Below are positions 52,040 through 64,000 of a DNA stretch of 64,000 nt, in pieces. The notes under the pieces were generated by a model. That model was not told the origin of the DNA, did not search any database, and saw nothing but the letters and a program-made list of their open reading frames with translations. Made by a program: the position numbers and the translations under genes. The stretch is from Gemmatimonadota bacterium (lineage in GTDB: Bacteria; Gemmatimonadota; Gemmatimonadetes; Gemmatimonadales; GWC2-71-9): positions 26,716 through 90,715 of the forward strand of contig JBDHEI010000003.1 of the NCBI GenBank assembly GCA_039591075.1, in the 5' to 3' direction. Numbering within the stretch: the stretch's first letter is position 1; every line of letters starts with the position of its first letter.

Positions 52040-52747
52040 GTGACACCGGGAGCCTTCGTTCGTCGCATCGCGCGTCCTCTCGTGTGGGTCGGGGCCGCGG
52101 TGCCTGGTGCGTGGCTGCTGCTGGACGCCCTGACCGGCGGGCTCGGCGCCAATCCGGTCGAATCGGTCACGCATCGGACCGGCTTGACGGCCCTCACGCT
52201 CCTCGCCCTCTCGCTCTCAGTGCGCCCCACGCGTGATCTGTTGCGTTTCGGCGCGCTGATGCCGCTCCGGCGGACCCTCGGCCTCGCCGCGTACACCTAT
52301 GCGGTGGTGCACGTCCTCACCTATGGAGTGGACCAGACCTATCTGTCCGGGCTCGGGGTCTCGCCCGCAGCGATCGTAGAGGACGTGCGCGAGCGTCCCT
52401 ACGTGACTATGGGTTTCCTCGCCTTCGTGCTCCTCACGCCGCTGGCCGTGACGTCGACGAGCGGGTGGGTAAAGCGGCTGGGCGCCACGCGGTGGCGGTG
52501 GTTGCATCGGCTGGTGTACCTGGCAGCCCCGCTCGCGGTGGTGCATTTCCTGTGGCTCGTCAAGGCGGATCTGCTGTTGCCGAGCCTCTTTGCACTTGCG
52601 GTGGCGGTGCTGCTGGGGTATCGGGTGGCACAGAGCCGTCGAAAACGGACCGCGCGGATGTCGGGGCAAGGTGTCCAGCCCCCGTCCCAGGTCGAGGTGG
52701 CGCCCGGGGAGATCTCGATGCGTGGTGAGGAACCGAGCCAATCGTGA
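52040..52747 (+). CDS. msrQ: protein-methionine-sulfoxide reductase heme-binding subunit
   Basis: Ferric-reductase-like 6-TM protein with conserved His in TM helices (YAVVHVLTY, LHRLVYLAAPLAVVHFLW), directly after msrP. Confidence 0.85.
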   Translation: MTPGAFVRRIARPLVWVGAAVPGAWLLLDALTGGLGANPVESVTHRTGLTALTLLALSLSVRPTRDLLRFGALMPLRRTLGLAAYTYAVVHVLTYGVDQTYLSGLGVSPAAIVEDVRERPYVTMGFLAFVLLTPLAVTSTSGWVKRLGATRWRWLHRLVYLAAPLAVVHFLWLVKADLLLPSLFALAVAVLLGYRVAQSRRKRTARMSGQGVQPPSQVEVAPGEISMRGEEPSQS

Positions 52748-53769
52748 AATCCGTGGTGTTCGCGCTTCCCGCCGATCCGCTGCGCAGCACCGGGCGCCTC
52801 CCCTTCAGCCGTCATCTCTCGGTATTGGGCCTGCGGGTGCACTTTGCATCGAACAGCGCCGAGGTGCTGGCGGCAGTGGATCGCTCCTTCGGTGCGGTCG
52901 CCGGTCTCCTCCCGCCACTCGCCGCCAAGGCTCCCGTCGCGGCTCGTGTGCGCCTCTGGGTGCGAGCGGGTGTGAGAGGCGAATCCAGCCCCCTCCGGGT
53001 CGAGTATTGCTGGCCGAGCCGTCGCAGATTCGCGCTCAGGGCGGAGGGCGGTTACGGGATAGCCGACATCGACGGTCACGAGGCAGCCGCCGTGGTCACG
53101 CCGGCGCTAGTCGAGGAGGAACTCCTGTTCCGATCGGCAGTGGTTGAGGCGCTCACCCTTATGCTCGTGACCCACCAAGATCGGTATCCCGTCCACGCCG
53201 CGACGCTGGTCCGGAACCAGTCTGCCGTCTTGCTGGTGGGGCCGTCCGGTTCCGGGAAGAGCACGGTGGCCTTTGCGGCACTCCGGCGGGGTTGGCGACT
53301 GCTCGGCGAGGAGGCCGCGTACGTCCAGTTGAGGCCGGTACCGTGCATCTGGGGGTTACCGCGTTCGGTCGGACTGCCGCCCGCGTCCATCGACTTCTTC
53401 CCCGACCTGCGGGACCGCGCGGTCCAGCGCCTTCCCGGTGGGAAAGACAAGGTGGTGATCCCGCTCGGTCCCTCCGACCGGGAAGTGGTCGCGATGGTTC
53501 GGAGTGGGGTGGTCTGTCTCCTTGAGCGCGGCGCTGGTCCGGCAACGCTGAGTCGCGTGTCGCGGGACGAGATGCACGAGGCGCTCATGTCAGGGTTGGA
53601 GCCCGGTTTCGATACCGATCCCGATGCGGCGCTGGCCGTCGCCACGCACCTCGCGCAGCCGAGGGGGTGGCGCCTATGTCACCGGGATGATCCGTACGAG
53701 AGCGTCCGGTTGCTGGGCCGGTTGGGTGAGCTCGGGGGAGGCGAGATGGAAGTGGAGAACCTCCCCTAG
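52744..53769 (+). CDS. HPr kinase C-terminal-like P-loop protein (HprK-related, function unknown)
   Basis: [46 protein letters not shown] matches the HprK-related kinase core (His-Ala...LLxGPSGxGKST...G..LLxD/E). Its GTG overlaps the msrQ stop (GTGA). Confidence 0.6.
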   Translation: MKSVVFALPADPLRSTGRLPFSRHLSVLGLRVHFASNSAEVLAAVDRSFGAVAGLLPPLAAKAPVAARVRLWVRAGVRGESSPLRVEYCWPSRRRFALRAEGGYGIADIDGHEAAAVVTPALVEEELLFRSAVVEALTLMLVTHQDRYPVHAATLVRNQSAVLLVGPSGSGKSTVAFAALRRGWRLLGEEAAYVQLRPVPCIWGLPRSVGLPPASIDFFPDLRDRAVQRLPGGKDKVVIPLGPSDREVVAMVRSGVVCLLERGAGPATLSRVSRDEMHEALMSGLEPGFDTDPDAALAVATHLAQPRGWRLCHRDDPYESVRLLGRLGELGGGEMEVENLP

Positions 53770-55181
53770 CGGGCGGATCGCACGCTCAGAGCCCGCTCCG
53801 CGAGAGAAGTCCACCGACGCTCGGTGTCTGCGCTCGGTCCCGTGACGACCTCGTTGTGCAAGAGGTCCCGGATGTCCCGATAGAATGACGTGGAGAAGGT
53901 GCCGCGGAACATCATGGCGAGGTCCCCGCTGTCGACCCAATTCCTCTTGTGACCGAGTTCCTCCTGCACGATGTTGAAGAACTCAGTTCCCGGGAGCGGG
54001 TATGCGACGGAAACGCCGATGTCATCCGGCCGTTCTTGGCGCACGAGGTCGCGCGTCTGAAGGATGTCATCCCACTCCTCGCCGAGATATCCCAGTTGAA
54101 GGAACCACCCGGTTCGAATTCCCTGGCTCTTGAGTGCCTGCGTCGCGCTGCGCACCTGCTCGACCGTCGTCCCCTTGTCCATCGCGTCCAGCACGTGCTG
54201 AGCCCCCGATTCGACCCCGATCCATACCTCTTCGGCTCCCGACTCGCGAAGCGCCTTCACGACAGACGGGGTGAGGAGGTTGGCTCGCGTTTGCATCATG
54301 AAGGGGGTCTGTGCCTCACGCGCAGCGAGTTCCTCGGCGAAGCTCGTGATCCAGTGTTCGGTCAACCCGAAAATGTCGTCGGCGAACCAGAGGTGGTCAG
54401 GTGCGACGTCCTGTTTGAGCAGGCGAACTTCCTCGGCGACGTCGGCCGGACTGCGTTGGACGTACCGGGTCCCGAAGATCGGCTTGGCGCACCAGTTGCA
54501 CCGGTAGGGACAACCGCGCGATGTGACGACGCTCCAAGAGAAGCGCCCGTGGCGCTGCCGCCACGCGGAGCGGTAGCGGTCGACGTCGACGAGATCCCAG
54601 GCCGGGAACGGCAGCGCGTCGAGGTCCTTCAGGTACGGGCGTGATGGTGTGGACGTCGGGACCGGCCGGTCCGCGCCCCCGCCCGGAAGCACCAGCCCCG
54701 GGATTCCGGAGAGGTCCGAGACCCCGGCTTCCCACGCGACCAAGACATCCTCGAGTGACCGTTCCGGCTCGCCGATGAGCGCGACGTCCGCCCCGGCGGC
54801 GAGATACTGCTCGGTGTGGTCGGTGGCGTCCGAGCCGTTCACCACCACGGGGATGCCACGGAACTTGGCGGCGGCGATCATGTCGAGGGCTGCCTCGCGC
54901 ATGCGAAGCGTGCACATCTTTGTCAGGAAGTTGAAATTGTCTTCGACGATCGCGACGGCTGCAGGGCGGATGCCTTCCAGCGCACCGGCAAATTCTTCCA
55001 CACCCGCCGACAGCATGGCATCGAAGAACCGTACGTCGAACCCCTTGTTCCTCAGTGTCGCGGTGACGATGAGCGTCGCGAGCGGTGCGTACGGCCGCAT
55101 CTTCTGCACCTGTTTCTCGTCGTAGCGCAGATAGTACGAATGCGCCAGGAGAATCGGGCCGAAGCGGTTGGGGATGCTCAT
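53766..55181 (-). CDS. B12-binding domain radical SAM protein (rSAM-1)
   Basis: N-terminal cobalamin-binding-type fold (IPVVVNGSDATDHTEQYLAAGADVALIGEPERSLEDVL), then the cluster motif GCPYRCNWC (CxxxCxxC). Paralogous to rSAM-2. Start at ATG 55181 (a TTG at 55202 is also possible). Confidence 0.85.
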   Translation of the reverse strand: MSIPNRFGPILLAHSYYLRYDEKQVQKMRPYAPLATLIVTATLRNKGFDVRFFDAMLSAGVEEFAGALEGIRPAAVAIVEDNFNFLTKMCTLRMREAALDMIAAAKFRGIPVVVNGSDATDHTEQYLAAGADVALIGEPERSLEDVLVAWEAGVSDLSGIPGLVLPGGGADRPVPTSTPSRPYLKDLDALPFPAWDLVDVDRYRSAWRQRHGRFSWSVVTSRGCPYRCNWCAKPIFGTRYVQRSPADVAEEVRLLKQDVAPDHLWFADDIFGLTEHWITSFAEELAAREAQTPFMMQTRANLLTPSVVKALRESGAEEVWIGVESGAQHVLDAMDKGTTVEQVRSATQALKSQGIRTGWFLQLGYLGEEWDDILQTRDLVRQERPDDIGVSVAYPLPGTEFFNIVQEELGHKRNWVDSGDLAMMFRGTFSTSFYRDIRDLLHNEVVTGPSADTERRWTSLAERALSVRSAR

Positions 55182-55230
55182 CGACGGGCTCGGTGTCGCC
55201 AAAGGGAATTCCCCAGTCTAGGGTCTCGCA

Positions 55231-55365: not shown

Positions 55366-55375
55366 GTTGGGATTC

Positions 55376-56755
55376 ATGACGGATTTGCTGCTCACCCACG
55401 GGTACTTCCTGCTCGAGGATGAAAAGGAGCAGGAGATCATGAAGCCGTACCCACCACTCGGCCTCCTGTATGTCTCGGCCTACTTGAGGCGCGCCGGGTT
55501 CGACGTCGAGGTCTTCGATAGCACGTTCGCCACGCCCACAGACCTCGCGAACCGGCTGGAGTTTGGCAGCGGCGTCCTGGGGGTCTACACCAATCTGGTG
55601 ACGCGCTCAGCGGTTCTGCGGATCGTCGCGAAGGCGAAGGCATGCGGCTGGGTTGTCGTGCTGGGTGGACCCGAGTCGGCCAACTATCCCGGGGAGTACC
55701 TCAAGCGAGGTGCCGACGCAGTCGTGGCCGGCGAAGGAGAGTTGACGATGGCCGAGCTCCTCCCGGCGCTTGCCCGGAGGGGGGCACACCGACTACACGA
55801 CATTCGCGGTGTGGCGTTCCTGGACGAGACTGGGCAACTCGTGGTCAGCGAGCCCCGCCCCCAGATCGCCGACCTGGACGAGCTGCCATGGCCCGACCGG
55901 GATCGCATCGACATTTCACGGTACGTCCAGGTTTGGCGCGAGCACCACGGCCAAGGGAGCGTCAACCTGATCACAGCCCGGGGATGTCCCTACAAGTGCC
56001 GGTGGTGCTCTCACGCCGTGTTCGGCTTCACGCATCGTCGCCGCAGCCATATTGACTGCGCTGACGAGCTCCAGCAGGTCGTCGACGCGTACGCGCCCGA
56101 CCAGGTTTGGTACGCGGACGACGTGTTCACTATTCACCATCGGTGGCTCTTCCAGTACGCGAGCGAGCTGCGCCGGCGAAACCTCCGCGTTCCCTTCGAA
56201 ACGATCTCCCGCGCCGACCGCATGATGAAAGAGGAAGTGCTCGCGACGCTCGCTGACATGGGATGCTGGAGGATCTGGATCGGGTCCGAGAGCGGCAGCC
56301 AACGGCTCCTCGACGGGATGGAGCGTGGCGTGACGGTGGAACAGGTTCAGTGGGCAGCGCGAGCGGCGAAACGGCATGGTATCCAGGTCGGGATGTTCCT
56401 GATGTGGGGCTACGAAGGGGAGACGTTCGAGGATATCGAAGCCACCGTCGAGCACGTAATGCAGGCGGCCCCGGATGTGTTCTTTACGACCGTGGCCTAT
56501 CCGATCAAGAACACAGCCTACTATGCTGACGTGGAGGACCGCGTATCGCTGCCGGCTGACTGGGCCGACGTGACGGATCGCGACTACGCTATCGCGGGCC
56601 GTCGCCCGCGTGCATACTACGGGCTCGCCGACCGATGGCTATCGAGTGCCGTTGAGGCTGCGAGAGCCAAGACCGGTGACCCGGCACGAGCGCTGGCGGC
56701 CTCGGAGGACGCAGCACGGGCACGCCAGGCCCTCCTGACGTGGCCCACCTCGTGA
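55376..56755 (+). CDS. B12-binding domain radical SAM protein (rSAM-2)
   Basis: VVLGGPESANYPGEYLKRGADAVVAGEGELTMAELL (GGxxxT...GEGE pattern of B12-rSAMs), then GCPYKCRWC. The N-terminus MTDLLLTHGYFLLEDEKEQEIMKPYPPLGLLY parallels rSAM-1 ILLAHSYYLRYDEKQVQKMRPYAPLATL. Confidence 0.85.
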   Translation: MTDLLLTHGYFLLEDEKEQEIMKPYPPLGLLYVSAYLRRAGFDVEVFDSTFATPTDLANRLEFGSGVLGVYTNLVTRSAVLRIVAKAKACGWVVVLGGPESANYPGEYLKRGADAVVAGEGELTMAELLPALARRGAHRLHDIRGVAFLDETGQLVVSEPRPQIADLDELPWPDRDRIDISRYVQVWREHHGQGSVNLITARGCPYKCRWCSHAVFGFTHRRRSHIDCADELQQVVDAYAPDQVWYADDVFTIHHRWLFQYASELRRRNLRVPFETISRADRMMKEEVLATLADMGCWRIWIGSESGSQRLLDGMERGVTVEQVQWAARAAKRHGIQVGMFLMWGYEGETFEDIEATVEHVMQAAPDVFFTTVAYPIKNTAYYADVEDRVSLPADWADVTDRDYAIAGRRPRAYYGLADRWLSSAVEAARAKTGDPARALAASEDAARARQALLTWPTS

Positions 56756-57573
56756 CCGACCACCTACCCGATGACCCCTTTGACCTTCTCGCCGCCGAAT
56801 ACGATCGGCAGTTCACCCATACCGAACTCGGCCGGCTCTACCGGGGCGCCGTATGGCGCTGGCTCGACCGCGCGTTCCACCGTGGCGACCGTGTGCTCGA
56901 GCTGAATTGCGGTACCGGCGAGGATGCGGTGCACCTCGCTCGGAGAGGCGTGCTGGTGCACGCCACGGATCGTTCTCAGGCAATGCTCGACGAGTCCCGG
57001 CGCAAGATTGCCGAGGCTGGACTCGGACGGCTCGTGACGTGGGAGCGGGTCTCGCTCACGGCTGACGCCGACCCTCGGATTCCGGCTCTCGACCGCTACA
57101 TGCCTGAAGCCGTCTTCGACGGGGCGGTGTCGAGTTTTGGGGGGCTGAACCTCGTCGCCGATGTGGAACCGGTTGCGACGGGGCTTGCCCGGCTCCTGCG
57201 GCCAGGCGCGCGGGTCGTGGTGTCGGCCATGGGCCGGTTGGTGCCGTGGGAATGGGGGTGGTACTTGGCTCAGCTGCGCCCCCGCGAAGGATTCCGCCGC
57301 TTGCGCTCCGACGGGGTGACGTGGCGGGGCTGCCGCGTGTTCTATCCGTCCGTCGCGGCGGTACGCAGGGCCTTCGCGTCGGAGTTCGAGTGTCGTGGCG
57401 TCGGCGCGATCGGCGTATTATTGCCGCCACCCTATGCAAATGCATGGGCCGCACGTCACCCAGCGCTTATGACTCGCCTGGACGCCCTCGAGCGGCGGTG
57501 CGAGCGTTGGTGGCCGCTTTCCCGGTTGGCGGATCACTACATCATCGAGTTCGAGCGGCGTGGGAGTGACTGA
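56740..57573 (+). CDS. class I SAM-dependent methyltransferase (MT-1)
   Basis: Motif I VLELNCGTGEDAVHLARRG, and post-I acidic residue ATD. The start is GTG 56740 or GTG 56752 (the latter overlaps the rSAM-2 stop as GTGA). Confidence 0.75.
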   Translation: MAHLVTDHLPDDPFDLLAAEYDRQFTHTELGRLYRGAVWRWLDRAFHRGDRVLELNCGTGEDAVHLARRGVLVHATDRSQAMLDESRRKIAEAGLGRLVTWERVSLTADADPRIPALDRYMPEAVFDGAVSSFGGLNLVADVEPVATGLARLLRPGARVVVSAMGRLVPWEWGWYLAQLRPREGFRRLRSDGVTWRGCRVFYPSVAAVRRAFASEFECRGVGAIGVLLPPPYANAWAARHPALMTRLDALERRCERWWPLSRLADHYIIEFERRGSD

Positions 57574-59086
57574 CGCCCGGGGGTGGGCGACCGTGCGTTC
57601 GATCCTCATGATGGCGCTCGCCGGCGCGCTGGTGCGCTGGGTGTTTGGGCTCGCCGAAATGCCGTGGGTGGACGCTCCTGACCAGCTGGCGTGGGAGCTT
57701 CTGCTCGACGAGGCGCGTGACGGACCGCTGCGCTTCGATCAACTCGTCCATTATCCGCACGAGGGCGCAAGCGCCCTGGTGGGCCTGCTGGCCTGGCTCC
57801 TGCCATCGCGCGTGGCCGGCCTTCCGGCGCTTTCTGCGGCCGCGCTGATCGTCGATACAGGCAGCCGAGCCGTACAAATCGCGGTCGTTCACCGGGTGTT
57901 CGGTTCCACCGTCGGGAAATGGTTCGGCTGGTGGACGGTCGTGACGGTGCCAGGACTGCTGCCCTGGGGGACTGCCGGCTTCGGGTTGCACGGACTCGCG
58001 GCGTTTTGGCCATTCGTACTCATGGTCCTGGCGGCGCGGCGGGTGGGCGTGCAGCCGGTGCCAGTCGGACTGGTGCTCGGACTGGCTGTCGCGTGGGCCC
58101 TGGACTCGCTCGTCGTGCTCGCTGCGGCGGTGACGTTCGTATTCACCTCGGGGCGGCAGGGTGGGCGGCTCCGTGCCACGGCGCTCGTCGTCGTCGCAGC
58201 CTTGGCAGTCCTGGTGCCCTGGTGGCTCCTGTGGACGCAGCTCGACGTGGGGTTTCAGTTGGAGAAGCTCGGACCGCTTTCGGTGCGGGGGATGTCCCCG
58301 AGTGTGGTCAACCTGCTGTGGGCCCCCGTACGGTTCCTCGCGGTGCCGATTGTGGTGATCCCCGGGGCGACGTGGCTGCCGACGGTGGGTGGGCCGGTGG
58401 GCACGTATGCACTCCGACTGGTCTGGACTGCGGCGTGTGTGATGGGCACGAGTCTGGTGGTCAGCCGGCGGGCGGAGCCGGCCGCAACGGTCGGCCTCTT
58501 GGTTCTCCTGTGGTTCTTCGTGGCCTATGCGGCGTCACCATTCTACGTGGCGTCCCCGCTGGGAGGAGACTATGTGGCCTACCGGCATCTGGCGTTTGTC
58601 CTGCCACTCTTGGTTGCGCTCGCTTGGCGAGGAGTCGCGGACACCGCCCGGTGGCGGCGATGGTTCGCCGTAACCTTGCTGGGGTTAGGTGTGCTGGGAG
58701 CACTAGGTCAGGTGGGGCAGCCGCAGGGAGCGCCGACGGTTCCGCCGGTGCGAGCCGCTGGCTGGGTCCTGGGGCGGAAGCTGGGTCATGATGTGCCGCG
58801 GCTATCGCGGCTCGCGGCGCGCATGCCGGACGATGATCGTGCCGAGCTCGAGCGCGGATTTGGATGGGGGCTCACGGCGACCGTCCTTGGACGAGGCTCA
58901 ACAAGGGGAGAGGAGGGTCTCCTCGAACTGGTCGAGCTCTTAAATGCGTTCCCGGCGGCGGTGCGGCCCGGCTTGATACGAGGTGTGGTAGATGCCTTCG
59001 ATCCTCGCGCGACGCCCCGTCTCGAGCCCGCTCTCCAGGCCGCGCTCCTGGCTCGGCTGGGGTCGGAAACCGACCCTGTCCGCTAG
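57560..59086 (+). CDS. large polytopic membrane protein (about 10+ TM; GT-C/ArnT-like topology suspected) with soluble C-terminal helical domain
   Basis: Many hydrophobic spans. An acidic first loop (WVDAPDQLAWELLLDEARDG) follows TM1. The last roughly 110 aa are hydrophilic and helical. It overlaps the MT-1 stop. No family recognised with certainty. Confidence 0.6.
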   Translation: MGVTDARGWATVRSILMMALAGALVRWVFGLAEMPWVDAPDQLAWELLLDEARDGPLRFDQLVHYPHEGASALVGLLAWLLPSRVAGLPALSAAALIVDTGSRAVQIAVVHRVFGSTVGKWFGWWTVVTVPGLLPWGTAGFGLHGLAAFWPFVLMVLAARRVGVQPVPVGLVLGLAVAWALDSLVVLAAAVTFVFTSGRQGGRLRATALVVVAALAVLVPWWLLWTQLDVGFQLEKLGPLSVRGMSPSVVNLLWAPVRFLAVPIVVIPGATWLPTVGGPVGTYALRLVWTAACVMGTSLVVSRRAEPAATVGLLVLLWFFVAYAASPFYVASPLGGDYVAYRHLAFVLPLLVALAWRGVADTARWRRWFAVTLLGLGVLGALGQVGQPQGAPTVPPVRAAGWVLGRKLGHDVPRLSRLAARMPDDDRAELERGFGWGLTATVLGRGSTRGEEGLLELVELLNAFPAAVRPGLIRGVVDAFDPRATPRLEPALQAALLARLGSETDPVR

Positions 59087-59892
59087 CCTGCGAGTCCGGG
59101 GACGGAGGTCGACCACACGTCGAAACGTGACGGGGGACGCATCCCCCGGAGCCGTGCCCAAAGGGGACGCAACTCGTACTGCCACGGGTACCGGACACGA
59201 TGGCGTCGCCACCGCAGGCCCAGCGCGTCCGATGCTTTCCCCAGCCGCTCCGGTGTGAGGAATTCCACGAACGGGAACCGCATCAGCTCCTCGGCCAGCG
59301 GCCCGAACGTCACGGGAGCGGCCTTTCGTTTTTCCTCCACCATCGCGACCCCCCACACCTCCCTAGCGTAGAACGGGGAGTCCACGATCAGGAGTGTTCC
59401 GCCCGGTCGCGCGACCCGACACGCCTCCCGGAGCGTTGCCTCGAGGTCGAGGGCGTAGTGGATCGATGCATTGAACACTACGAGATCGAACCCTGCGCTG
59501 GTGAGAGGGAGGGTCTCGAAGGTGCCGGCGATCCGTGGGAACATGGCAGGCAGGTGCGCAGCGTAAGCTGCCGCAGCGCCGAGCCCGTCCACCGTATCGG
59601 TCCGAATGTCGAGAGCGATAGGGCGATGACCCTCGAGTGCGCTGCGGTAACACAACCAGCCGTTGCCGGCTCCCAGGTCGAGTATCCGTAGGGGGTGGCT
59701 GGCGCCGCTGCGTGAGAGCCAGTGGCGTGCCACATACGCGAAGGAGCGTGCCCGAATTCGCCACTCGTCAGCTCGGGGACCGGTCCGCAGGAACGGGAGT
59801 GCGAGCAACTCCTGTACACCGCCCGCGCCGCGACCCTCTCGTGCACGCTGGGTACCGTACGCCAGGCGGAAACGCCTCAGGCTCCCGGTCAC
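59083..59892 (-). CDS. class I SAM-dependent methyltransferase (MT-2)
   Basis: Motif I ILDLGAGNGWLCYRSALEGH, post-I LDI, motif II/III DLVVFNASIHY...ARPGGTLLIV. GTG start. Confidence 0.75.
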   Translation of the reverse strand: MTGSLRRFRLAYGTQRAREGRGAGGVQELLALPFLRTGPRADEWRIRARSFAYVARHWLSRSGASHPLRILDLGAGNGWLCYRSALEGHRPIALDIRTDTVDGLGAAAAYAAHLPAMFPRIAGTFETLPLTSAGFDLVVFNASIHYALDLEATLREACRVARPGGTLLIVDSPFYAREVWGVAMVEEKRKAAPVTFGPLAEELMRFPFVEFLTPERLGKASDALGLRWRRHRVRYPWQYELRPLWARLRGMRPPSRFDVWSTSVPGLAG

Positions 59893-59925: not shown

Positions 59926-61479
59926 TCAAATGCTCTCACGTTGCGGCTCCCGAAGCGGGATCAGGCGGCGGGCGAACTCCAGTTCACGGGGGCGGTCGTA
60001 TCGGGCGGTCGCGTAGCGCCACGACGCCAGGTGCTGGAGGATCCACTTCCCCCAGCGTGGTGTCGACCAATCCTGAACCGTGGGGAAGCGACAGGAGAGC
60101 ACCCTTGCGAAGTCTTGGACGCGTTCGCGCAGCGCCGGGGTGAGCCACGGGGCGTCTTGGTGGCAGACGTACCGTACCCAGCGGGGGTCGGCCCACCCCT
60201 CGGGGGTGGTCGGAAGGAGTGGCCCGCCGGGGCCGTACTGCTCCAGGATCGGGATTCGTGCTCCCGAATCGTCCAATCGGCTCTGTTCCCCGCTGAGCTG
60301 AGGTGTGGGGCTGTAGAAATAGAGGATCACTTCGCATGCGGGGTGAATCCGCTTGAGTTGTTTGATGAAGCGGAACGTGTGCTCGATTTCCCCCTCCGGG
60401 TCCTCCGGTCCGCCGACTACGAAGGAGAATTCCGGGATGATGCCGAAGGCCCGACAGCGCTCAGCGACCTCCAGCGTGTGCTCGACCCGCGAGCCCTTCC
60501 GCATGGCACGCAACATTTCGTCGCTGGCCGCTTCGGCCCCGATGTACGCCATGCGAAGCTGGCTCGTGCGGAGCAGTTCCCATGTTGCTGTTGAGAACCC
60601 CGCCAAGGTGTCCGCACGGGCATAGCACCACCACGGAAGGCGGTGCCGTGCCAGCACCTCGAGGATCGGTATGCTCGTGACCTCCCGGTCGAAGAAGTTG
60701 TGATCGTAGTATTGGACGGCATCCGCACGATACCGAGTGGAGAGGAGCTTCAGCACGTGATCGAGGCGCTCCGGGCCCTGGAGGTGGGTCTTACCGCCGA
60801 ACATGGAAACCACGCCACAGAACTCGCAGCGAAAGCGACAGCCGATGGCAGCCTGATGGACGGCCGTGCGCCGGCCGAGGAAACTCGGCCGGAAGTAGGT
60901 GTCGACGTCCTCGAGCGCGTCATAGGAGTAGACGGGGTACGTGTCGGGTGGACGAAACGCCCGGGCGGGGTTGTGGACGATCTCGCTGTCGCGCTTCCAG
61001 GTGAGTCCGGTGATCGCGATGGCGGCTGTCTCCCGAGTCGAGTCGCTCCGGCGGCCGACGTCGGATGGCGCGATGTCCGGGTGGGCCTCCAGCAGCCGGT
61101 GCAGCGTGTCCTCGCCCTGGCCGCGCACGACGTAGTCGACATATGGTGCGTTGATCGCCGAGTCGGGGTACAGCGTCGGGAAATAGCCTCCCCAGGCAAT
61201 CGGCACATCCGGGCGCGCGCGGCGCACGGCGGTCGCGATCGCGATGGCAGGAGCCACCTGGGGGCCCGGCATCACGGTGATACCCACCAACGCATGCCGG
61301 ACGCCGGTGAGCAACTGGAGCACGGTCTTGTCGGGGTGGGGATCGACGTTCCCGTCCACGATGCGGTATTCATACCGTCCTTCCAACACCGCGCCGAGCG
61401 CCAGCAGCGAGAGCGGCAGTCGCACACCCCGGGGCTTTGCCATGGAGGGATTCACGAGCAGCACCAATGGCCGGGTCAT
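59926..61479 (-). CDS. B12-binding domain radical SAM protein (rSAM-3)
   Basis: IAWGGYFPTLYPDSAINAPYVDYVVRGQGEDTLHRLL (B12-rSAM N-domain pattern), then GCRFRCEFC. Its ATG overlaps the upstream stop (ATGA). Confidence 0.85.
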   Translation of the reverse strand: MTRPLVLLVNPSMAKPRGVRLPLSLLALGAVLEGRYEYRIVDGNVDPHPDKTVLQLLTGVRHALVGITVMPGPQVAPAIAIATAVRRARPDVPIAWGGYFPTLYPDSAINAPYVDYVVRGQGEDTLHRLLEAHPDIAPSDVGRRSDSTRETAAIAITGLTWKRDSEIVHNPARAFRPPDTYPVYSYDALEDVDTYFRPSFLGRRTAVHQAAIGCRFRCEFCGVVSMFGGKTHLQGPERLDHVLKLLSTRYRADAVQYYDHNFFDREVTSIPILEVLARHRLPWWCYARADTLAGFSTATWELLRTSQLRMAYIGAEAASDEMLRAMRKGSRVEHTLEVAERCRAFGIIPEFSFVVGGPEDPEGEIEHTFRFIKQLKRIHPACEVILYFYSPTPQLSGEQSRLDDSGARIPILEQYGPGGPLLPTTPEGWADPRWVRYVCHQDAPWLTPALRERVQDFARVLSCRFPTVQDWSTPRWGKWILQHLASWRYATARYDRPRELEFARRLIPLREPQRESI

Positions 61480-62162
61480 GCGGACGCCGCCGGCACCGCA
61501 CGGTACGCCGTCATCACTTCGTTCCCGAAATCCCGGTGATGCGCTGGTGTCACGATGAACCCTGCGGCCGCGAGGCTGGTTAGCAACGTGGGCTCATCGC
61601 CATCGCTCGAGAATACCACGAGGGCTTCGCCACCTGGTGCTAACACGTCTCCCAACCCCGCGGCGAACCGGTGCAACACGTCGGGGCTCCTCCAATGTCG
61701 TTCGCGCGGATCACGAGGAATTCCTCGAAAAAACGGCGGGTTGAAGGTCACAACGTCGAACCGCTCGCCCATGACGGGTCCCCACAGGTCCCCTTGACGG
61801 ACGGCAATGCGATCCTCGACGCCGTTGAGCAGCGCGTTGACTCGTGCGCATCGCACGGCCACCGGGTCGGTATCCACCGCGACGACCCGCCAGCCGAGCC
61901 GAGCGAGGAACACAGCTCCCACGCCGCTCCCCGTGCCCAGGTCGAGCGCTCCTGTCCGCGCCGCGTCGCGTTCACGGGACGCAATGCAGAGATCGATTGC
62001 ATCTGCCAGGAAGCGGCCGCTGCGAAAGACCACTGGGTTGTGCACGCCGGGTAGCACGAGGAGGGGCACGTCCTTCACCGTCTCGAGCACGGCGTGGCGA
62101 AGACGGCGTCGAAGCCACGGACGTCGCAGACGCTGGCCCAGCCGGACCAATGCTCGTCGCAC
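61476..62162 (-). CDS. SAM-dependent methyltransferase with NPPF motif (PrmC/HemK-like amino-methyltransferase fold; MT-3)
   Basis: Motif I ALDLGTGSGVGAVFLARLG, post-I VDTD, catalytic-type DVVTFNPPFF. GTG start. Confidence 0.75.
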   Translation of the reverse strand: MRRALVRLGQRLRRPWLRRRLRHAVLETVKDVPLLVLPGVHNPVVFRSGRFLADAIDLCIASRERDAARTGALDLGTGSGVGAVFLARLGWRVVAVDTDPVAVRCARVNALLNGVEDRIAVRQGDLWGPVMGERFDVVTFNPPFFRGIPRDPRERHWRSPDVLHRFAAGLGDVLAPGGEALVVFSSDGDEPTLLTSLAAAGFIVTPAHHRDFGNEVMTAYRAVPAASA

Positions 62163-62285: not shown

Positions 62286-63365
62286 ATGACTGAATTGATT
62301 CCGCGCCCGGCACCGAGTCAACCCCGCACCGCGCCAGGGCCGCTCCGGCCGCGAGTCGACCCCATCACCTCACTGCCGATCGTGATCTTGTATCCCCACA
62401 ACCGCTGCAACTGCCGCTGCGTGATGTGTGATATCTGGGAACTTCGCACCACGGAGGAGCTCACCATCGAGGAAATCGAAACGTGGATGCCGGAGTGGCA
62501 GGCGGTTGGCGTGGAGCGTGTGGTGCTGAGCGGAGGCGAGCCGCTCATGTATTCGGCGTTTGATGCTCTTGGCGAGCTGTTCCTGACGGCCGGGATCGGC
62601 GTGTCGCTGATCAGCACTGGTCTGCTCCTCGAGCGGCGGGCAGAGGCGGTCGGGAAATACTGCGACGATGTCATCGTGAGCTTGGACGGCCCACCCGAAG
62701 TGCACGACCGCATTCGCCGAGTTCCTCGAGCGTACGAGCGTCTGGCACGGGGCGTTGCGGCGGTCCGTGCTGTGGCCCCGGGGATCTGCATTTCCGCCCG
62801 CTGCACGGTACTACGCGAAAATGCCGGAACACTCACGAAGACGGTCGACGCGGCCAAGCGTCTCGGGCTCGAGCGGCTGAGCTTTCTCGCGGCCGATGTC
62901 AGCAGTGAGGCTTTCAATCGGCCGGGCGGTTGGGCGCCGGACCGGGCCGCGGTAGTGGCCCTCGATGGGGCGGGACTGCATGCACTCAGAGGGGAGCTGG
63001 ATGCGCTGGCCCGCGACTATGCCGACGATTTCGCCTCCGGTGTCATCGCCGAGAGCATCGAGAAGCTGGAACGCCGCCTGTACCACTACTTCGCGGCGAT
63101 CCTGGGGAAGGGAGCGTTCCCCTCCATCGAATGCAATGCGCCGTGGGTGTCCGCTGTGGTCGAATCCGACGGAACCGTGCGGCCATGTTTCTTTCATGCT
63201 TCAATGGGGAGTGCGCGGGAGGCCGGGGGGTTCGAGGTGGTGCTCAACTCGGACGAAGCCGTTGCATGGCGCCGCGGGCTCGACATGAGTCGCAACGAGA
63301 TCTGCCGACGCTGCGTCTGCTCGCTTGCGCTGCGGCGAGGGGCCGAGCCTGCCAGAGCGGTGTGA
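62286..63365 (+). CDS. radical SAM protein with C-terminal SPASM/twitch-like Cys cluster (rSAM-4)
   Basis: CNCRCVMC contains CxxxCxxC, and SGGEPL is the glycine-rich SAM motif. C-terminal cysteines are CNAPW...DGTVRPCFF...CRRCVCS. An upstream in-frame GTG at 62196 is an alternative start. Confidence 0.8.
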   Translation: MTELIPRPAPSQPRTAPGPLRPRVDPITSLPIVILYPHNRCNCRCVMCDIWELRTTEELTIEEIETWMPEWQAVGVERVVLSGGEPLMYSAFDALGELFLTAGIGVSLISTGLLLERRAEAVGKYCDDVIVSLDGPPEVHDRIRRVPRAYERLARGVAAVRAVAPGICISARCTVLRENAGTLTKTVDAAKRLGLERLSFLAADVSSEAFNRPGGWAPDRAAVVALDGAGLHALRGELDALARDYADDFASGVIAESIEKLERRLYHYFAAILGKGAFPSIECNAPWVSAVVESDGTVRPCFFHASMGSAREAGGFEVVLNSDEAVAWRRGLDMSRNEICRRCVCSLALRRGAEPARAV

Positions 63366-63380
63366 AGGTCGGGCCGCGCG

Positions 63381-64000
63381 AATGAGGATCGCCCTGGTCG
63401 TGCCCGGCGGTGTGAGTCGCGACGGCGAATACCGCGTCATCCCGTCAATCCTCTGGCTCATCGAGCGGCTCACACGTCGACACGACGTGCAGGTCGTGAC
63501 CCTGCGCCAGGAATCGCATCCGGCCTCCTGGGTGCTGGGTGGCGCAACCGTCCACAACGTGGGGACGAGGTCGTGGCGTCGGCGGGCCGTTCACACGTTG
63601 CTGCGACTCCACCGATCGACACCCTTCGACGTCTTCCACGCCCTGTGGGTCCGCGGACCCGGTGACGTTGCGCTCGCGGCCGGTCGGCTGTGTCGGCGCC
63701 CGGTGCTCGTGCACGTGGCAGGTGGCGAGTTCGTGTGGCTGCCGGAGATCCGATATGGTGGGGCGGGGTCAGCGTGGTCGAGGTGGATCGCGGGGACGGT
63801 CGTTCGATGGGCCGACCGAGTGACGGCCGCCAGCACCCCCATGCTCGAGCTAGTGCGATCCCACGGCGCTGAAGCGGAGCGGGTTGCTCTGGGTGTGGAC
63901 ACGGCCTTCTGGACGGTCATACCGCCTCGGCCCCGCCCGCGCGACCGGCCGGCGCGTCTCGTCCACGTGGGCAGCCTCAACCCCGTGAAGAACCAGGAAA
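63381..64000 (+). CDS. GT4-type (GT-B fold) glycosyltransferase, 3' partial at window edge
   Basis: Hand translation from ATG 63381 gives MRIALVVPGGVSRDGEYRVIPSILWLIERL...FDVFHALWVRGPG...VHVAGGEF...ADRVTAASTPM...LVHVGSLNPVKNQE, with no stop before nt 64000. This is the typical N-terminal half of GT4 enzymes. It is absent from the supplied ORF track because it is open-ended. Confidence 0.7.

What the first reader, a model, noticed from the sequence alone, without database searches (positions are those of the whole stretch)
52744..64000. Compact locus with four radical-SAM enzymes, three methyltransferases, an HprK-like P-loop protein and two glycosyltransferase-like proteins: an uncharacterised tailoring pathway
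In about 11 kb there are three B12-binding-type radical SAM proteins (GCPYRCNWC, GCPYKCRWC, GCRFRCEFC) and one SPASM/twitch-type radical SAM protein. There are also three SAM methyltransferases (one with an NPPF catalytic motif), an HPr-kinase-related P-loop protein, a 508-aa polytopic membrane protein and a GT4 glycosyltransferase. They are packed into three or four transcription units with 4-nt overlaps and no spacers, and the locus runs off the window. The enzyme logic recalls proteusin/polytheonamide-type RiPP tailoring, which combines B12-rSAM C-methyltransferases, a further rSAM and an N-methyltransferase. HprK-like kinases are also known from lasso-peptide loci. However, I see no NHLP/Nif11-type precursor, protease or exporter. 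The GT-C-like and GT4 genes instead suggest an envelope glycan or lipid substrate. I cannot map the gene order to any pathway I know.
Basis: partly seen in the sequence, partly recalled or inferred. Interest (0 to 1): 0.8.

Follow-up and report, generated by a model that had tools for sequence, protein, structure and literature searches.

The report
Conserved radical-SAM and methyltransferase sugar-tailoring cassette
This is a real gene cluster of unknown product, found in hundreds of soil and sediment bacteria from at least eight phyla, that combines several vitamin-B12-type radical enzymes, methyltransferases and sugar-handling enzymes and most likely decorates a sugar-containing envelope molecule rather than a peptide.

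Summary
Window 52744-64000 encodes three B12-binding radical SAM proteins, one SPASM/twitch radical SAM protein, three class I methyltransferases (one HemK-like with NPPF), an HprK/PEPCK-fold P-loop protein, a polytopic membrane protein and a GT4. The genes are tightly packed and under purifying selection. No rSAM reaches the curated cut-off of any characterised NCBIfam subfamily.

The genes are co-conserved. Among 51 genome loci of at least 15 kb seeded with the SPASM protein, 47 carry B12-rSAMs beside it and 42 carry two or more. The phyla include Acidobacteriota, Gemmatimonadota, Chloroflexota, Bacteroidota/Ignavibacteria and Planctomycetota. Methyltransferases, specific GT4s, GT87/PMT-type GT-C, Wzx, NTP_transf_5 and a deaminase-type amidohydrolase recur.

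A close relative (85-94% amino-acid identity) shows what lies beyond nt 64000: the rest of the GT4, then a PIG-L deacetylase, a GNAT and NTP_transf_5.

I found no precursor peptide, RRE, protease or riboswitch. One contig encodes a GT4-SPASM fusion.

Best reading (about 0.42): SAM-intensive tailoring of a glycolipid or lipid-linked glycan. Rivals are a RiPP or protein substrate, lipid-chain tailoring, and a secreted small molecule.

The 508-aa membrane protein is a lineage-specific ORFan, and its "GT-C-like" label is not supported. The product remains unknown.

The parts
52744..53769 (+). g5: ScmC-like P-loop protein with a PEPCK/HprK-type kinase fold (341 aa). It is an accessory member of the cassette and is usually paired with NTP_transf_5.
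   Evidence: Walker [10 protein letters not shown]. Weak family hits: PF07475 at 17 bits, TIGR04352 at 51 bits (cut-off 200), TIGR04249 at 19 bits (cut-off 125). The precomputed Pfam assignment is PF27840 ScmC (weak). Only 13 homologues among 5.8e9 proteins. AF2 model: pLDDT 86, pTM 0.86. Foldseek finds ATP-dependent PEP carboxykinase over both domains (TMq about 0.5) and the HprK/P C-terminal domain. Co-occurs with NTP_transf_5.
53766..55181 (-). g6: B12-binding radical SAM protein 'B12a' (471 aa; the ORF extends to 55202)
   Evidence: PF02310 and PF04055, motif GCPYRCNWC. Best NCBIfam hits are BchE at 111 bits (cut-off 481) and HpnJ at 105 bits (cut-off 578). Orthologues at 45% identity or more in 35 of 51 large loci. 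dN/dS 0.19.
55376..56755 (+). g7: B12-binding radical SAM protein 'B12b' (459 aa)
   Evidence: PF02310 and PF04055, motif GCPYKCRWC. Best NCBIfam hits are BchE at 143 bits (cut-off 481) and HpnJ at 110 bits. Best solved relatives by sequence are 9ccb and AprD4, 6fd2. Orthologues at 50% identity or more in 27 of 51 loci. Adjacent to MT1 in 25 of 28 loci where both are present.
56740..57573 (+). g8: class I SAM methyltransferase 'MT1' (277 aa), the conserved partner of B12b
   Evidence: Methyltransf_25/11/12. Best NCBIfam hit is the CpaM corrinoid-protein-associated methyltransferase at 62 bits (cut-off 180). Found in 60 of 81 loci.
57560..59086 (+). g9: 508-aa polytopic membrane protein, a lineage-specific ORFan inserted between MT1 and MT2
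   Evidence: No Pfam or NCBIfam hit. Three homologues among 5.8e9 proteins. Absent from L003/L004 and all other loci. About 10-11 hydrophobic segments. dN/dS 0.24. AF2 pLDDT 41, so the fold is unknown.
59083..59892 (-). g10: class I SAM methyltransferase 'MT2' (269 aa)
   Evidence: Methyltransf_11/31/25. Found in 25 loci. Fused to MT3 in 7 Chloroflexota-type loci (family F32).
59926..61479 (-). g11: B12-binding radical SAM protein 'B12c' (517 aa)
   Evidence: PF02310 and PF04055, motif GCRFRCEFC. Best NCBIfam hit is BchE at 86 bits (cut-off 481). The family is present in 67 of 81 loci. A cluster member at 90% identity or more is named as coming from a Gemmatimonadota bacterium.
61476..62090 (-). 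g12: HemK/MTS-type methyltransferase 'MT3' with FNPPFF (204 aa; the ORF extends to 62162)
   Evidence: PF05175 MTS and PrmA. HemK2/MTQ2 family at 72 bits (cut-off 87). Found in 19 loci, plus the F32 fusions.
62286..63365 (+). g13: SPASM/twitch radical SAM protein (359 aa), the most widely conserved marker of the cassette
   Evidence: PF04055 and PF13186. Best NCBIfam hits are PTO1314 at 77 bits (cut-off 306) and ScmE at 69 bits (cut-off 400). Best solved relative is BlsE, cytosylglucuronate decarboxylase, at 60 bits. More than 590 genome hits. 201 clusters at 50% identity with E<=1e-30. No N-terminal RRE: the rSAM cysteines start at residue 41. Fusions with GT4 and with Amidohydro_1 exist.
63382..64000 (+). 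g14: GT4 glycosyltransferase, N-terminal 206 aa (cut by the window end; 370 aa in the close relative)
   Evidence: Glyco_trans_4_4 and Glyco_transf_4. Orthologues at 49-56% identity lie beside the cassette in 15-16 loci of several phyla. In L093/L094 it is followed by PIG-L, GNAT and NTP_transf_5.

Best explanation
The locus is one member, in a Gemmatimonadota genome, of a widespread and so far uncharacterised SAM-intensive biosynthetic cassette.

Shown: the conserved core is a SPASM/twitch radical SAM enzyme, two to five B12-binding radical SAM enzymes in at least three orthologous groups, and two to four class I methyltransferases. Recurrent accessories are two cassette-specific GT4 glycosyltransferases, a GT-C (GT87 or PMT type), a Wzx-type flippase, an HprK/PEPCK-fold kinase paired with an NTP_transf_5 nucleotidyltransferase, and a nucleobase-deaminase-type amidohydrolase. 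In this lineage there are also a PIG-L deacetylase and a GNAT.

Inferred mechanism. The substrate is the sugar part of a membrane-anchored glycoconjugate, either a glycolipid or a lipid-linked glycan.
1. The GT4 transfers an N-acetylhexosamine to the acceptor.
2. PIG-L removes the acetyl group.
3. The GNAT re-acylates the free amine, or the HemK-like methyltransferase N-methylates it.
4. The B12-rSAMs methylate or rearrange unactivated carbons, as GenK and GenD1 do on aminoglycoside sugars and as HpnJ is proposed to do on the hopanoid glucosamine.
5. The twitch rSAM performs an oxidation, decarboxylation or C-C bond step on the sugar, as BtrN and BlsE do.
6. The other class I methyltransferases add O- or N-methyl groups.
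7. The kinase and NTP_transf_5 pair adds a phosphate-linked group, by analogy with lasso-peptide phospho-glycosylation.
8. Where the amidohydrolase or a PNP_UDP_1 nucleosidase is present, it probably removes inhibitory 5'-deoxyadenosine and SAH.
For: - The domain inventory is confirmed.
- Co-conservation: of 51 loci of at least 15 kb, 47 have B12-rSAM beside the SPASM gene and 42 have two or more. MT1 is in 60 of 81 loci and lies next to B12b in 25 of 28. All genes are under purifying selection.
- Sugar context: 27 of 51 large loci carry GT4, GT87 or Wzx within 10 kb. Orthologues of g14 at about 50% identity lie beside the cassette in 15-16 loci from Gemmatimonadota, Acidobacteriota, Chloroflexota, Rhodanobacter and Cytophagia. 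GT87, PMT-type GT-C, Wzy_C and Polysacc_synt are present.
- L092 places the cassette next to GT9, GT4, NTP_transf_5, Wza, Wzz, Bac_transf, Wzx and Wzy.
- The close relative L093/L094 continues with GT4, PIG-L, GNAT and NTP_transf_5. PIG-L recurs next to the GT4 in L012, and PIG-L with GNAT recurs in a Chloroflexia locus, L036.
- P0075 is a GT4-SPASM fusion protein.
- The nearest solved relatives act on sugars: BlsE for g13, and AprD4 for g7 and g11.
- Precedents: HpnI-HpnK-HpnJ and Cds on lipid head groups (PMC13459092); GenD1, GenN and GenK on aminoglycoside sugars (PMC4340712, PMC4039129).
- By-product removal: the F13 amidohydrolase is of the guanine or 5'-deoxyadenosine deaminase type, and PNP_UDP_1 genes occur among the neighbours.
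Against: - No step has been tested, and no acceptor or product is identified.
- About half of the large loci have no glycosyltransferase within 10 kb. The Terriglobales type, for example, has only rSAMs, methyltransferases and NTP_transf_5.
- No initiating phosphoglycosyl transferase, polymerase or nucleotide-sugar synthesis gene lies in the window.
- The only characterised relatives of the kinase and nucleotidyltransferase pair act on peptides (PMC8498205).
- HemK-type NPPF methyltransferases typically methylate glutamine amides or nucleobase amines, not sugars.
- The similarities to BlsE and AprD4 are weak (24-60 bits). The NCBIfam hits are equally close to BchE, HpnJ, the MCR methylase and the RiPP enzyme ApyD.
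- The GT4-SPASM fusion was seen on a single 4.4-kb contig.
Confidence: 0.42

Rival explanations
1. RiPP or protein tailoring. The rSAMs and methyltransferases modify a ribosomal peptide or an envelope protein encoded elsewhere, in a proteusin-like way: B12-rSAM C-methylation, HemK-like N-methylation of Asn or Gln amides, and a SPASM cross-link or epimerisation. The kinase, the NTP_transf_5 and the GT4s would then phospho-glycosylate it.
For: - HprK homologues and nucleotidyltransferases phosphorylate and glycosylate lasso peptides (PMC8498205).
- The ScmC-like protein and NTP_transf_5 are linked here.
- g13's second-best model is the SynChlorMet maturase ScmE, aligned over its full length.
- g12 is closest to protein N5-glutamine methyltransferases.
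- ApyD and the MCR glutamine C-methyltransferase are among the B12-rSAM hits.
- MsbA-like ABC exporters lie in 6 loci.
- PMT-type GT-C enzymes glycosylate proteins.
Against: - No conserved small ORF was found among about 8,900 short ORFs from about 90 loci.
- The window has no room for a precursor; the intergenic gaps are at most 195 bp.
- There is no PqqD/RRE gene. g13 has no N-terminal RRE, and the N-domain of g5 is a beta-rich PEPCK-type domain, not a winged helix.
- A census of 134 unassigned neighbouring genes found no protease, YcaO or LanB.
- RiPP models score far below their cut-offs: TIGR03975 at 50-76 bits (cut-off 282), ScmE at 69 (cut-off 400), ScmC at 19 (cut-off 125).
Confidence: 0.2
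2. Lipid-chain tailoring. The B12-rSAMs methylate or cyclise unactivated carbons of a membrane lipid (branched or membrane-spanning lipids, or hopanoids) and the SPASM enzyme forms a C-C bond. This would parallel the archaeal gms-grs-gmm cluster. The GT4s would add the head group.
For: - The enzyme composition mirrors the characterised GDGT-modifying cluster: a SPASM/twitch rSAM (Gms), a B12 methylase (Gmm) and a B12 ring synthase (Grs). Bacterial Gms homologues are reported in Acidobacteria and Planctomycetes (PMC11214058).
- g13's best NCBIfam hit is an archaeal family, PTO1314.
- In two Acidobacteriaceae genomes (L083, L087) a 48-49% identical SPASM homologue lies divergently next to hpnA, an hpnG-like gene, hpnC, hpnD and hpnE.
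- HpnJ and the lipid (ladderane-type) B12-rSAM are among the top models for g6 and g7.
- The host phyla are typical soil and sediment groups.
Against: - No fatty-acid, isoprenoid, ether-lipid or tes/mss-like genes were found among the conserved or sampled neighbours.
- The hpn adjacency is a single lineage, and those two loci lack the B12-rSAMs.
- Many carriers, such as Anaerolineae and Ignavibacteria, are not known hopanoid or brGDGT producers (own knowledge).
- This reading does not explain three to four non-CMAS class I methyltransferases, an NPPF methyltransferase, PIG-L or GNAT.
- g11 and g7 do not match the solved Tes structure by sequence.
Confidence: 0.2
3. A secreted small-molecule natural product, either an aminoglycoside-like pseudo-oligosaccharide or a nucleoside-type compound, rather than an envelope component. 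In the nucleoside version the SPASM enzyme transfers a 5'-deoxyadenosyl group to the substrate, as MqnE and HpnH do, and the amidohydrolase or nucleosidase then processes the base.
For: - GT4, PIG-L, twitch rSAM, B12-rSAM and N-methyltransferase is the enzyme set of the butirosin, gentamicin and apramycin pathways (own knowledge; PMC4340712, PMC4039129). AprD4 and BlsE are the nearest solved relatives.
- The deaminase-type amidohydrolase is usually adjacent to the SPASM gene and is fused to it in P0078.
- PNP_UDP_1 genes occur among the neighbours.
- The NPPF methyltransferase suits a nucleobase amine.
- ABC exporters occur in 6 loci.
Against: - There is no 2-deoxy-scyllo-inosose synthase, aminotransferase or other scaffold-forming gene in the window or among the conserved families.
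- Conservation at 45-70% identity across eight or more phyla and hundreds of species, on chromosomes among housekeeping genes, is unusual for an antibiotic cluster.
- The amidohydrolase and the nucleosidase are absent from the window lineage.
- GT-C, Wzx and Wzy neighbours point to the envelope.
Confidence: 0.1
4. There is no functional unit: the rSAM, methyltransferase and GT genes are unrelated genes that merely lie next to one another.
For: The genes lie on both strands in five transcription units. Accessory content differs between phyla.
Against: The same orthologous groups stay together across phyla in most loci, with conserved adjacencies and start/stop overlaps. Fusion proteins exist: MT2-MT3 in 7 loci, GT4-SPASM, and amidohydrolase-SPASM.
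Confidence: 0.02

Closest known systems
Hopanoid side-chain and ring tailoring (HpnH, HpnG, HpnI, HpnK, HpnJ, HpnP/HpnR)
   Same: Both use a glycosyltransferase that adds GlcNAc, then a deacetylase, then a B12-domain rSAM acting on the amino-sugar. Both also include further B12-rSAM C-methylases, a non-B12 rSAM and a PNP_UDP_1 enzyme. HpnJ is the second-best model for g6 and g7. A g13 homologue lies next to an hpn operon in L083 and L087 (PMC13459092).
   Different: Scores are far below the cut-offs: HpnJ 105-110 bits (cut-off 578), HpnR 38-86 (cut-off 650), HpnH 39 (cut-off 225). The window has no shc or hpnCDE. The deacetylase here is PIG-L. There are three or more class I methyltransferases and a kinase/NTP_transf_5 pair. 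Most carrier phyla are not known hopanoid producers.
Aminoglycoside tailoring (BtrM/BtrD/BtrN; GenD1, GenK, GenN; AprD4)
   Same: Both combine GT4, a PIG-L-type deacetylase, a twitch rSAM, cobalamin-dependent rSAM C-methylation of sugars and class I N-methylation. AprD4 is among the best solved matches of g7 and g11 (PMC4340712, PMC4039129).
   Different: There are no aminocyclitol-forming or aminotransferase genes. The similarity is weak (24-53 bits). The cassette is chromosomal and spread over many phyla rather than being an actinomycete antibiotic cluster. GT-C, Wzx and Wzy neighbours are present.
Archaeal GDGT-modifying cluster gms-grs-gmm
   Same: Both cluster one SPASM/twitch rSAM with several B12-binding rSAMs that methylate or cyclise unactivated carbons (PMC11214058, PMC13459092).
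   Different: Homology to Gms, Grs and Gmm could not be tested because no sequences were at hand. No tes or mss gene lies nearby. The cassette has extra class I methyltransferases, GT4s, PIG-L, GNAT, a kinase and a nucleotidyltransferase. The SPASM motif of g13 is truncated, whereas Gms is reported to bind two auxiliary clusters.
Proteusin (polytheonamide-type) RiPP clusters
   Same: Both have several B12-rSAM C-methyltransferase-like proteins, one further rSAM and a side-chain-amide-type N-methyltransferase.
   Different: There is no NHLP/Nif11 precursor, protease or LanM-like dehydratase. TIGR03975 scores 50-76 bits (cut-off 282). No RRE is present.
SynChlorMet (Scm) cassette, the HPr-rel-A system, and the lasso-peptide kinase plus nucleotidyltransferase pair (paeninodin, pseudomycoidin)
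   Same: Both have an HprK-fold P-loop protein (Pfam ScmC, weak) together with a SPASM rSAM resembling ScmE. Both pair the kinase with a nucleotidyltransferase (here NTP_transf_5, PF14907; the family of the lasso enzyme was not checked) (PMC8498205).
   Different: There is no PqqD-type partner, no second SPASM protein and no lasso cyclase or protease. ScmC scores 19 bits (cut-off 125), ScmE 69 (cut-off 400) and HprK_rel_A 51 (cut-off 200). The pair is accessory and absent from most cassette loci.
Mycothiol, bacillithiol and GPI-type GlcNAc transfer followed by deacetylation (MshA/MshB/MshD, BshA/BshB, PIG-A/PIG-L)
   Same: The window lineage has the same adjacent triad of GT4, PIG-L-family deacetylase and GNAT. 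BshA, MshA, BshB and MshB are among the weak hits.
   Different: All scores are far below the cut-offs (45-66 bits against 182-462). There is no cysteine ligase. The triad is embedded among four rSAMs and three methyltransferases.

Membership tests
Proteusin / polytheonamide-type RiPP cluster | NHLP- or Nif11-type precursor peptide gene in or next to the cluster | tested here: not met
   No conserved short ORF was found among about 8,900 short ORFs (20-130 aa) from about 90 loci. Window intergenic gaps are at most 195 bp.
Proteusin / polytheonamide-type RiPP cluster | B12-rSAM belonging to the RiPP C-methyltransferase family (TIGR03975) | tested here: not met
   g6 scores 50.5, g7 76.0 and g11 55.4 bits against a cut-off of 281.85.
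Proteusin / polytheonamide-type RiPP cluster | Leader protease, dehydratase or RRE-containing partner | tested here: not met
   None among the window genes, the conserved families or 134 sampled neighbours. g13 has no N-terminal RRE.
SynChlorMet (Scm) cassette | ScmC equivalog (TIGR04249) | tested here: not met
   18.7 bits against a cut-off of 125. Only the broader Pfam family PF27840 ScmC matches, and weakly.
SynChlorMet (Scm) cassette | Two SPASM maturases ScmE and ScmF plus the PqqD-like ScmD | tested here: not met
   There is one SPASM protein only. ScmE scores 69.1 bits (cut-off 400) and ScmF 43.6 (cut-off 400). No PqqD-like gene is present.
HPr-rel-A system (HprK-related kinase A with a PqqD-family partner) | HprK_rel_A equivalog (TIGR04352) and a PqqD-family partner | tested here: not met
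   51.1 bits against a cut-off of 200, aligned over residues 144-227 only. No PqqD gene is present. NTP_transf_5 is present in the close relative.
HPr kinase/phosphorylase fold (P-loop kinase related to PEPCK) | Walker A P-loop within an HprK/PEPCK-type nucleotide-binding domain | tested here: met
   GPSGSGKST is invariant among homologues. The AF2 model (pLDDT 86) matches ATP-PEPCK (Foldseek probability 1.00, TMq 0.43-0.51) and the HprK/P C-terminal domain (TMt 0.40-0.51). Kinase activity itself was not tested.
Characterised B12-rSAM subfamilies (BchE, HpnJ, HpnR, MCR Gln methylase, PhpK, BzaD, AprD4, ApyD, KedN5, ladderane-type) | Score at or above the curated NCBIfam cut-off | tested here: not met
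   The best scores are BchE at 111, 143 and 86 bits for g6, g7 and g11 (cut-off 481). All other models are also far below their cut-offs.
B12-binding (class B) radical SAM superfamily | N-terminal B12-binding domain plus a radical SAM core with CxxxCxxC | tested here: met
   PF02310 and PF04055 score above the gathering thresholds in g6, g7 and g11, and the motifs are present. Cobalamin binding and methyl transfer cannot be tested with these tools.
SPASM/twitch radical SAM | Radical SAM core plus a C-terminal Cys-rich auxiliary-cluster domain | tested here: met
   PF04055 scores 65.8 bits and PF13186 36.3 bits (cut-off 21.5). C283, C301, C340, C343 and C345 are invariant in the three-sequence SPASM alignment A1 (window, L008, L003). 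The motif is shorter than the canonical seven-Cys SPASM motif.
Wzx/Wzy-dependent polysaccharide locus | Initiating phosphoglycosyl transferase, Wzx flippase, Wzy polymerase and export proteins | tested here: not met
   None lie in the window or in the continuation seen in L093/L094. They are adjacent to the cassette in L092 and L018 only, and Wzx is present in 11 of 80 loci.
GT-C glycosyltransferases (claimed for g9) | Sequence or fold similarity to a GT-C family (PMT, GT87, ArnT and similar) | tested here: inconclusive
   No Pfam hit at E<=1. No BLASTP similarity to the PMT-type GT-C protein of L033; comparison with the cassette's GT87 protein was not run. The AF2 model has pLDDT 41 and is unusable for fold search.
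Archaeal GDGT-modifying cluster (Gms, Grs, Gmm) | Orthology of the SPASM protein to Gms and of the B12 proteins to Grs or Gmm; clustering with tes or mss | not testable with these tools
   No reference sequences could be obtained, and the paper has no held supplements. No tes- or mss-like gene was seen among the conserved neighbours, and there is no sequence match to the solved Tes structure.

The most novel reading that the evidence does not exclude
The cassette could be the missing bacterial machinery that installs methyl branches, rings or bridges on membrane lipids of soil bacteria. It would be a bacterial counterpart of the archaeal gms-grs-gmm cluster, acting for example on branched tetraether (brGDGT-type) or hopanoid-type lipids, with the GT4 and PIG-L enzymes building the head group. 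A second version is that the SPASM enzyme adds a 5'-deoxyadenosyl unit that the fused or adjacent deaminase then processes, giving nucleoside-type lipids. Either version would assign genes to widely used soil lipid biomarkers whose tailoring enzymes and producers are, to my knowledge, still unknown.
Probability: 0.15. Interest if true: 0.9.

Novelty: new variant of a known kind. Interest (0 to 1): 0.62.

Why it matters
B12-dependent radical SAM enzymes carry out some of the hardest reactions in biology, including methylation, ring contraction and cyclisation at unactivated carbons. Very few of them have known substrates.

This cassette keeps three to five of them together with a twitch rSAM and several methyltransferases in hundreds of species from at least eight phyla that dominate soils and sediments. 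No curated family model reaches its cut-off for any of its rSAMs, and four full-text literature searches aimed at it found no description of it.

Its product is therefore probably a common, chemically unusual and heavily methylated envelope molecule. Identifying it would:
- assign function to several large orphan enzyme families at once;
- show whether sugar C-methylation or rearrangement by B12-rSAMs occurs outside antibiotic pathways;
- under the lipid reading, give genetic markers for geochemical proxies.

The work also gives a concrete, testable definition of the cassette (core and accessory parts) and candidate genera in which to study it.

Tried and rejected
- Recovering the window's own contig beyond nt 64000 by exact protein look-up. 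g11 and g5 returned only short contigs. g13 and the g9 homologue P0062 were not on record. I solved this indirectly through the 85-94% identical relative L093/L094.
- Precursor peptide search. I clustered all ORFs of 20-130 aa lying outside the assigned genes in about 90 loci. Only shadow ORFs and local synteny came up.
- A riboswitch or RNA leader that might hint at the ligand. Rfam at gathering threshold over the window and four loci found only the SRP RNA. The promoter and terminator scans were uninformative.
- g9 as a GT-C or as a relative of the 512-aa protein of L006. There is no similarity, and the structure model was unusable.
- F19 (313 aa, no Pfam) as a divergent NTP_transf_5. hhalign gave a probability of 0.2%, so this is rejected.
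- The F13 amidohydrolase as a NagA-like sugar deacetylase. It is rejected: F13 matches the guanine, 5'-deoxyadenosine and TRZ/ATZ deaminase group.
- The upstream histidine kinase and msrPQ as part of the system. They are syntenic only in close Gemmatimonadota relatives and absent elsewhere.
- A hopanoid link as a general explanation. hpn genes lie next to the SPASM homologue in one lineage only, L083 and L087.
- Literature searches for the cassette, PF14907, SynChlorMet, and B12-rSAM with polysaccharide or Acidobacteria gave no description of this system.

Full report
**1. What is in the sequence**

The region lies in a 66-68% G+C chromosome segment with no compositional break. Housekeeping genes surround it: class II ribonucleotide reductase, ispG, dnaX and the SRP RNA. 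A protein at least 90% identical to g11 is deposited as coming from a Gemmatimonadota bacterium, and an identical stretch occurs in assembly GCA_039584555.1.

ORF listing, Pfam and NCBIfam scans give this gene map:
- g5, 52744-53769 (+): P-loop protein.
- g6, 53766-55181 (-): B12-rSAM.
- g7, 55376-56755 (+): B12-rSAM.
- g8, 56740-57573 (+): methyltransferase.
- g9, 57560-59086 (+): 508-aa membrane protein.
- g10, 59083-59892 (-): methyltransferase.
- g11, 59926-61479 (-): B12-rSAM.
- g12, 61476-62090 (-): HemK-like methyltransferase with FNPPFF.
- g13, 62286-63365 (+): SPASM/twitch rSAM.
- g14, 63382 onward (+): GT4, cut by the window end.

Against a relative with 85-94% amino-acid identity, all nine complete genes have dN/dS of 0.11-0.28. 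They are expressed coding genes, g9 included.

**2. The rSAMs belong to no characterised subfamily**

Against NCBIfam, the three B12-rSAMs hit BchE, HpnJ, the MCR glutamine C-methyltransferase, the ladderane-type lipid enzyme, PhpK, ApyD, HpnR, BzaD and AprD4 at 40-143 bits. The curated cut-offs are 251-775 bits. g13 hits PTO1314, ScmE, NirJ, AhbC and BlsE at 56-77 bits against cut-offs of 306-650.

By sequence, the nearest solved structures are:
- for g7, an unnamed rSAM (9ccb) and AprD4;
- for g11, AprD4, very weakly;
- for g13, the cytosylglucuronate decarboxylase BlsE.

**3. The genes are co-conserved, and widely**

g5 has only 13 homologues among 5.8 billion proteins. The contigs that carry them show the same gene order at 44% identity (L003/L004) and 88% identity (L008). 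A rearranged variant has two B12-rSAMs, three methyltransferases, GT4, Wzy_C and NTP_transf_5 (L006).

I scanned one genome per GTDB species with an alignment of g13 orthologues. This gave more than 590 confirmed hits. The best 80, at 41-63% identity, come from Acidobacteriota, Gemmatimonadota, Chloroflexota, Bacteroidota/Ignavibacteria, Planctomycetota, KSB1, Latescibacterota, Rhodanobacter and Entotheonella. An exhaustive HMMER search finds 201 clusters at 50% identity with E<=1e-30.

tblastn and all-against-all clustering of the ORFs in these loci show the following:
- Of 51 loci of at least 15 kb, 47 have B12-rSAM genes next to the SPASM gene. Forty-two have two or more, and some have up to eight hits.
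- The g11-type family is in 67 of 81 loci, the g6/g7-type family in 59 and MT1 in 60.
- MT1 lies next to the g7 orthologue in 25 of 28 cases.
- MT2 is in 25 loci and MT3 in 19. The two are fused in 7 Chloroflexota-type loci.
- Twenty-one of the 51 large loci contain orthologue-level matches to all three window B12-rSAMs.

This is a conserved functional cassette.

**4. Accessory genes and what lies beyond the window**

Recurrent accessories are:
- two GT4 families plus a third (31 loci in all);
- GT87 (9 loci) and PMT-type GT-C (4 loci);
- Wzx/Polysacc_synt (11 loci) and Wzy_C;
- NTP_transf_5 (about 14 loci);
- an unannotated 313-aa family, F19 (16 loci);
- a fourth methyltransferase, F11 (23 loci);
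- an Amidohydro_1 of the guanine, 5'-deoxyadenosine and TRZ/ATZ deaminase type, F13 (20-22 loci, usually touching the SPASM gene);
- an MsbA-like ABC exporter (6 loci);
- a DUF5777 beta-barrel (5 loci);
- ScmC-like proteins (about 12-15 loci).

Twenty-seven of the 51 large loci carry GT4, GT87 or Wzx within 10 kb.

In L092 the cassette, here with ScmC and GT9, runs straight into a complete Wza-Wzz-Bac_transf-Wzx-GT4-Wzy locus.

The close relative L093/L094 has the identical order, g9 included. It shows that after the GT4 (370 aa) come a PIG-L family deacetylase, a 350-aa GNAT (Acetyltransf_9) and NTP_transf_5, all on the minus strand. An unrelated peptidase follows. The whole locus is therefore 13 genes and about 15.2 kb.

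The GT4/PIG-L pair recurs in another Gemmatimonadota locus (L012). PIG-L with GNAT recurs at 39-52% identity in a Chloroflexia locus (L036). These genes belong to the system.

g9 occurs only in the window lineage and is absent from L003/L004. It is a lineage-specific insertion, not a cassette component.

**5. The P-loop protein**

An AlphaFold2 model of g5 built on 13 homologues is confident (pLDDT 86, pTM 0.86). Foldseek matches ATP-dependent PEP carboxykinase across both domains, and the HprK/P catalytic domain. g5 is therefore a kinase-fold protein of the PEPCK/HprK class. Its N-terminal domain is beta-rich and PEPCK-like, not a PqqD-type peptide-recognition element.

ScmC-like genes and NTP_transf_5 genes co-occur. 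Nine loci have both, and they are adjacent with 4-nt overlaps in L030 and L054. Most 'ScmC-only' loci are truncated contigs or belong to the window lineage, which has NTP_transf_5 downstream.

The only characterised precedent for such a pair is the lasso-peptide kinase plus nucleotidyltransferase. The kinase phosphorylates a C-terminal serine and the nucleotidyltransferase adds hexoses to that phosphate (PMC8498205).

**6. Which substrate?**

A peptide is argued against by several results.
- No conserved small ORF exists among about 8,900 short ORFs from about 90 loci.
- The window's intergenic gaps are too small for a precursor.
- There is no PqqD/RRE gene, and g13 has only about 35 residues before its rSAM cysteines.
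- A Pfam census of 134 further neighbouring genes shows more methyltransferases, rSAMs, ABC transporters, NTP_transf_5 and PNP_UDP_1. It shows no protease, YcaO or LanB, and also no lipid-synthesis genes.

A sugar is favoured by several results.
- Cassette-specific GT4s are conserved across phyla.
- GT-C, Wzx and Wzy genes are frequent neighbours.
- The window lineage has the GT4-PIG-L-GNAT triad.
- One contig encodes a GT4-SPASM fusion protein (P0075). This is a single observation.
- The nearest solved relatives of the rSAMs act on sugars.

Biochemical precedents exist for this logic: HpnI, HpnK and HpnJ, and calditol synthase, on lipid head groups (PMC13459092), and GenD1, GenK and GenN on aminoglycoside sugars (PMC4340712, PMC4039129).

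The F13 amidohydrolase is fused to the SPASM enzyme in P0078. Together with the PNP_UDP_1 neighbours it is most simply explained as removal of 5'-deoxyadenosine and SAH from a pathway that consumes very large amounts of SAM. This is an inference.

A lipid-chain substrate is not excluded.
- The archaeal gms-grs-gmm cluster has the same rSAM composition (PMC11214058).
- In two Acidobacteriaceae genomes a 48-49% identical g13 homologue lies beside hpnA, an hpnG-like gene and hpnCDE.

That is one lineage, however, and those loci lack the B12-rSAMs. No lipid genes recur elsewhere.

**7. Verdict**

Shown:
- The locus is real, selected and co-conserved.
- It is outside all curated subfamilies.
- Its full extent and its core and accessory structure are defined.
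- The P-loop protein has a kinase fold.
- RiPP hallmarks are absent.

Inferred: the cassette tailors the sugar part of a membrane-anchored glycoconjugate (confidence about 0.42). The rivals are a peptide or protein substrate (0.2), lipid-chain tailoring (0.2) and a secreted small molecule (0.1).

Four full-text literature searches aimed at the cassette found no description of it. I rate it a new variant of a known kind, an rSAM-rich tailoring cluster, and of above-average interest because of its breadth and its concentration of orphan B12-rSAMs.

Noticed in passing
L083:2451-11032 and L087:1-4300: In two Acidobacteriaceae-type MAGs, a 48-49% identical homologue of the SPASM protein g13 stands alone, with no B12-rSAMs within 10 kb. 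It is divergently adjacent to a hopanoid operon. HpnA scores 499 bits, HpnC 361 and HpnE 503, all above their cut-offs. HpnD (240) and an HpnG-like phosphorylase (73) score below theirs. Two Zn-dependent alcohol dehydrogenases are also present.
   Followed up: partly
P0075 (contig L095:587-2815) and P0078: Two fusion proteins involve the g13 family. One is GT4 plus SPASM rSAM (742 aa, seen on a single 4.4-kb contig). The other is a deaminase-type Amidohydro_1 plus SPASM rSAM (744 aa, named by JGI as radical SAM enzyme/cytosine-adenosine deaminase-related).
   Followed up: partly
window 57560-59086: g9 is a 508-aa polytopic membrane ORFan with three homologues among 5.8 billion proteins. It sits exactly between MT1 and MT2 of an otherwise conserved cassette and has dN/dS of 0.24. 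Its origin and role are unknown.
   Followed up: partly
window 46015-52747: A 1352-aa multi-membrane-span histidine kinase, a CarboxypepD_reg/Plug fragment and msrP-msrQ lie directly upstream. The msrQ stop overlaps the g5 start by 4 nt. The kinase-msrPQ-g5 order is kept in a relative at 44-64% identity (L003), but not outside this group.
   Followed up: partly
window 35876-44533 (- strand): A run of similar-sized genes looks like four tandem MacB/FtsX-type permease paralogues (413-438 aa), followed by an ABC ATPase, a 444-aa gene and an outer-membrane efflux protein. Only 37190-38503 (MacB_PCD plus FtsX), 41023-41730 (ABC_tran) and 42986-44533 (OEP) were checked with Pfam.
   Followed up: partly
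window 17909-18006 (+): Bacterial small SRP RNA (RF00169, 43.5 bits against a gathering score of 40) lies immediately upstream of dnaX (17975-19708).
   Followed up: no
L040:514-1461, L041:1980-2921 and 14 other loci: Family F19 (about 313 aa) has no Pfam or NCBIfam hit. It is the first gene of the cassette in Chloroflexota, Ignavibacteria and some Acidobacteriota loci. It carries a DIDYLVV-like motif but is not detectably related to NTP_transf_5.
   Followed up: partly
L090:8660-13219: Here a g14-type GT4, NTP_transf_5 and a methyltransferase stand without the rSAM cassette, directly next to an IS3-type transposase pair. This may be a remnant or a mobile sub-module.
   Followed up: no
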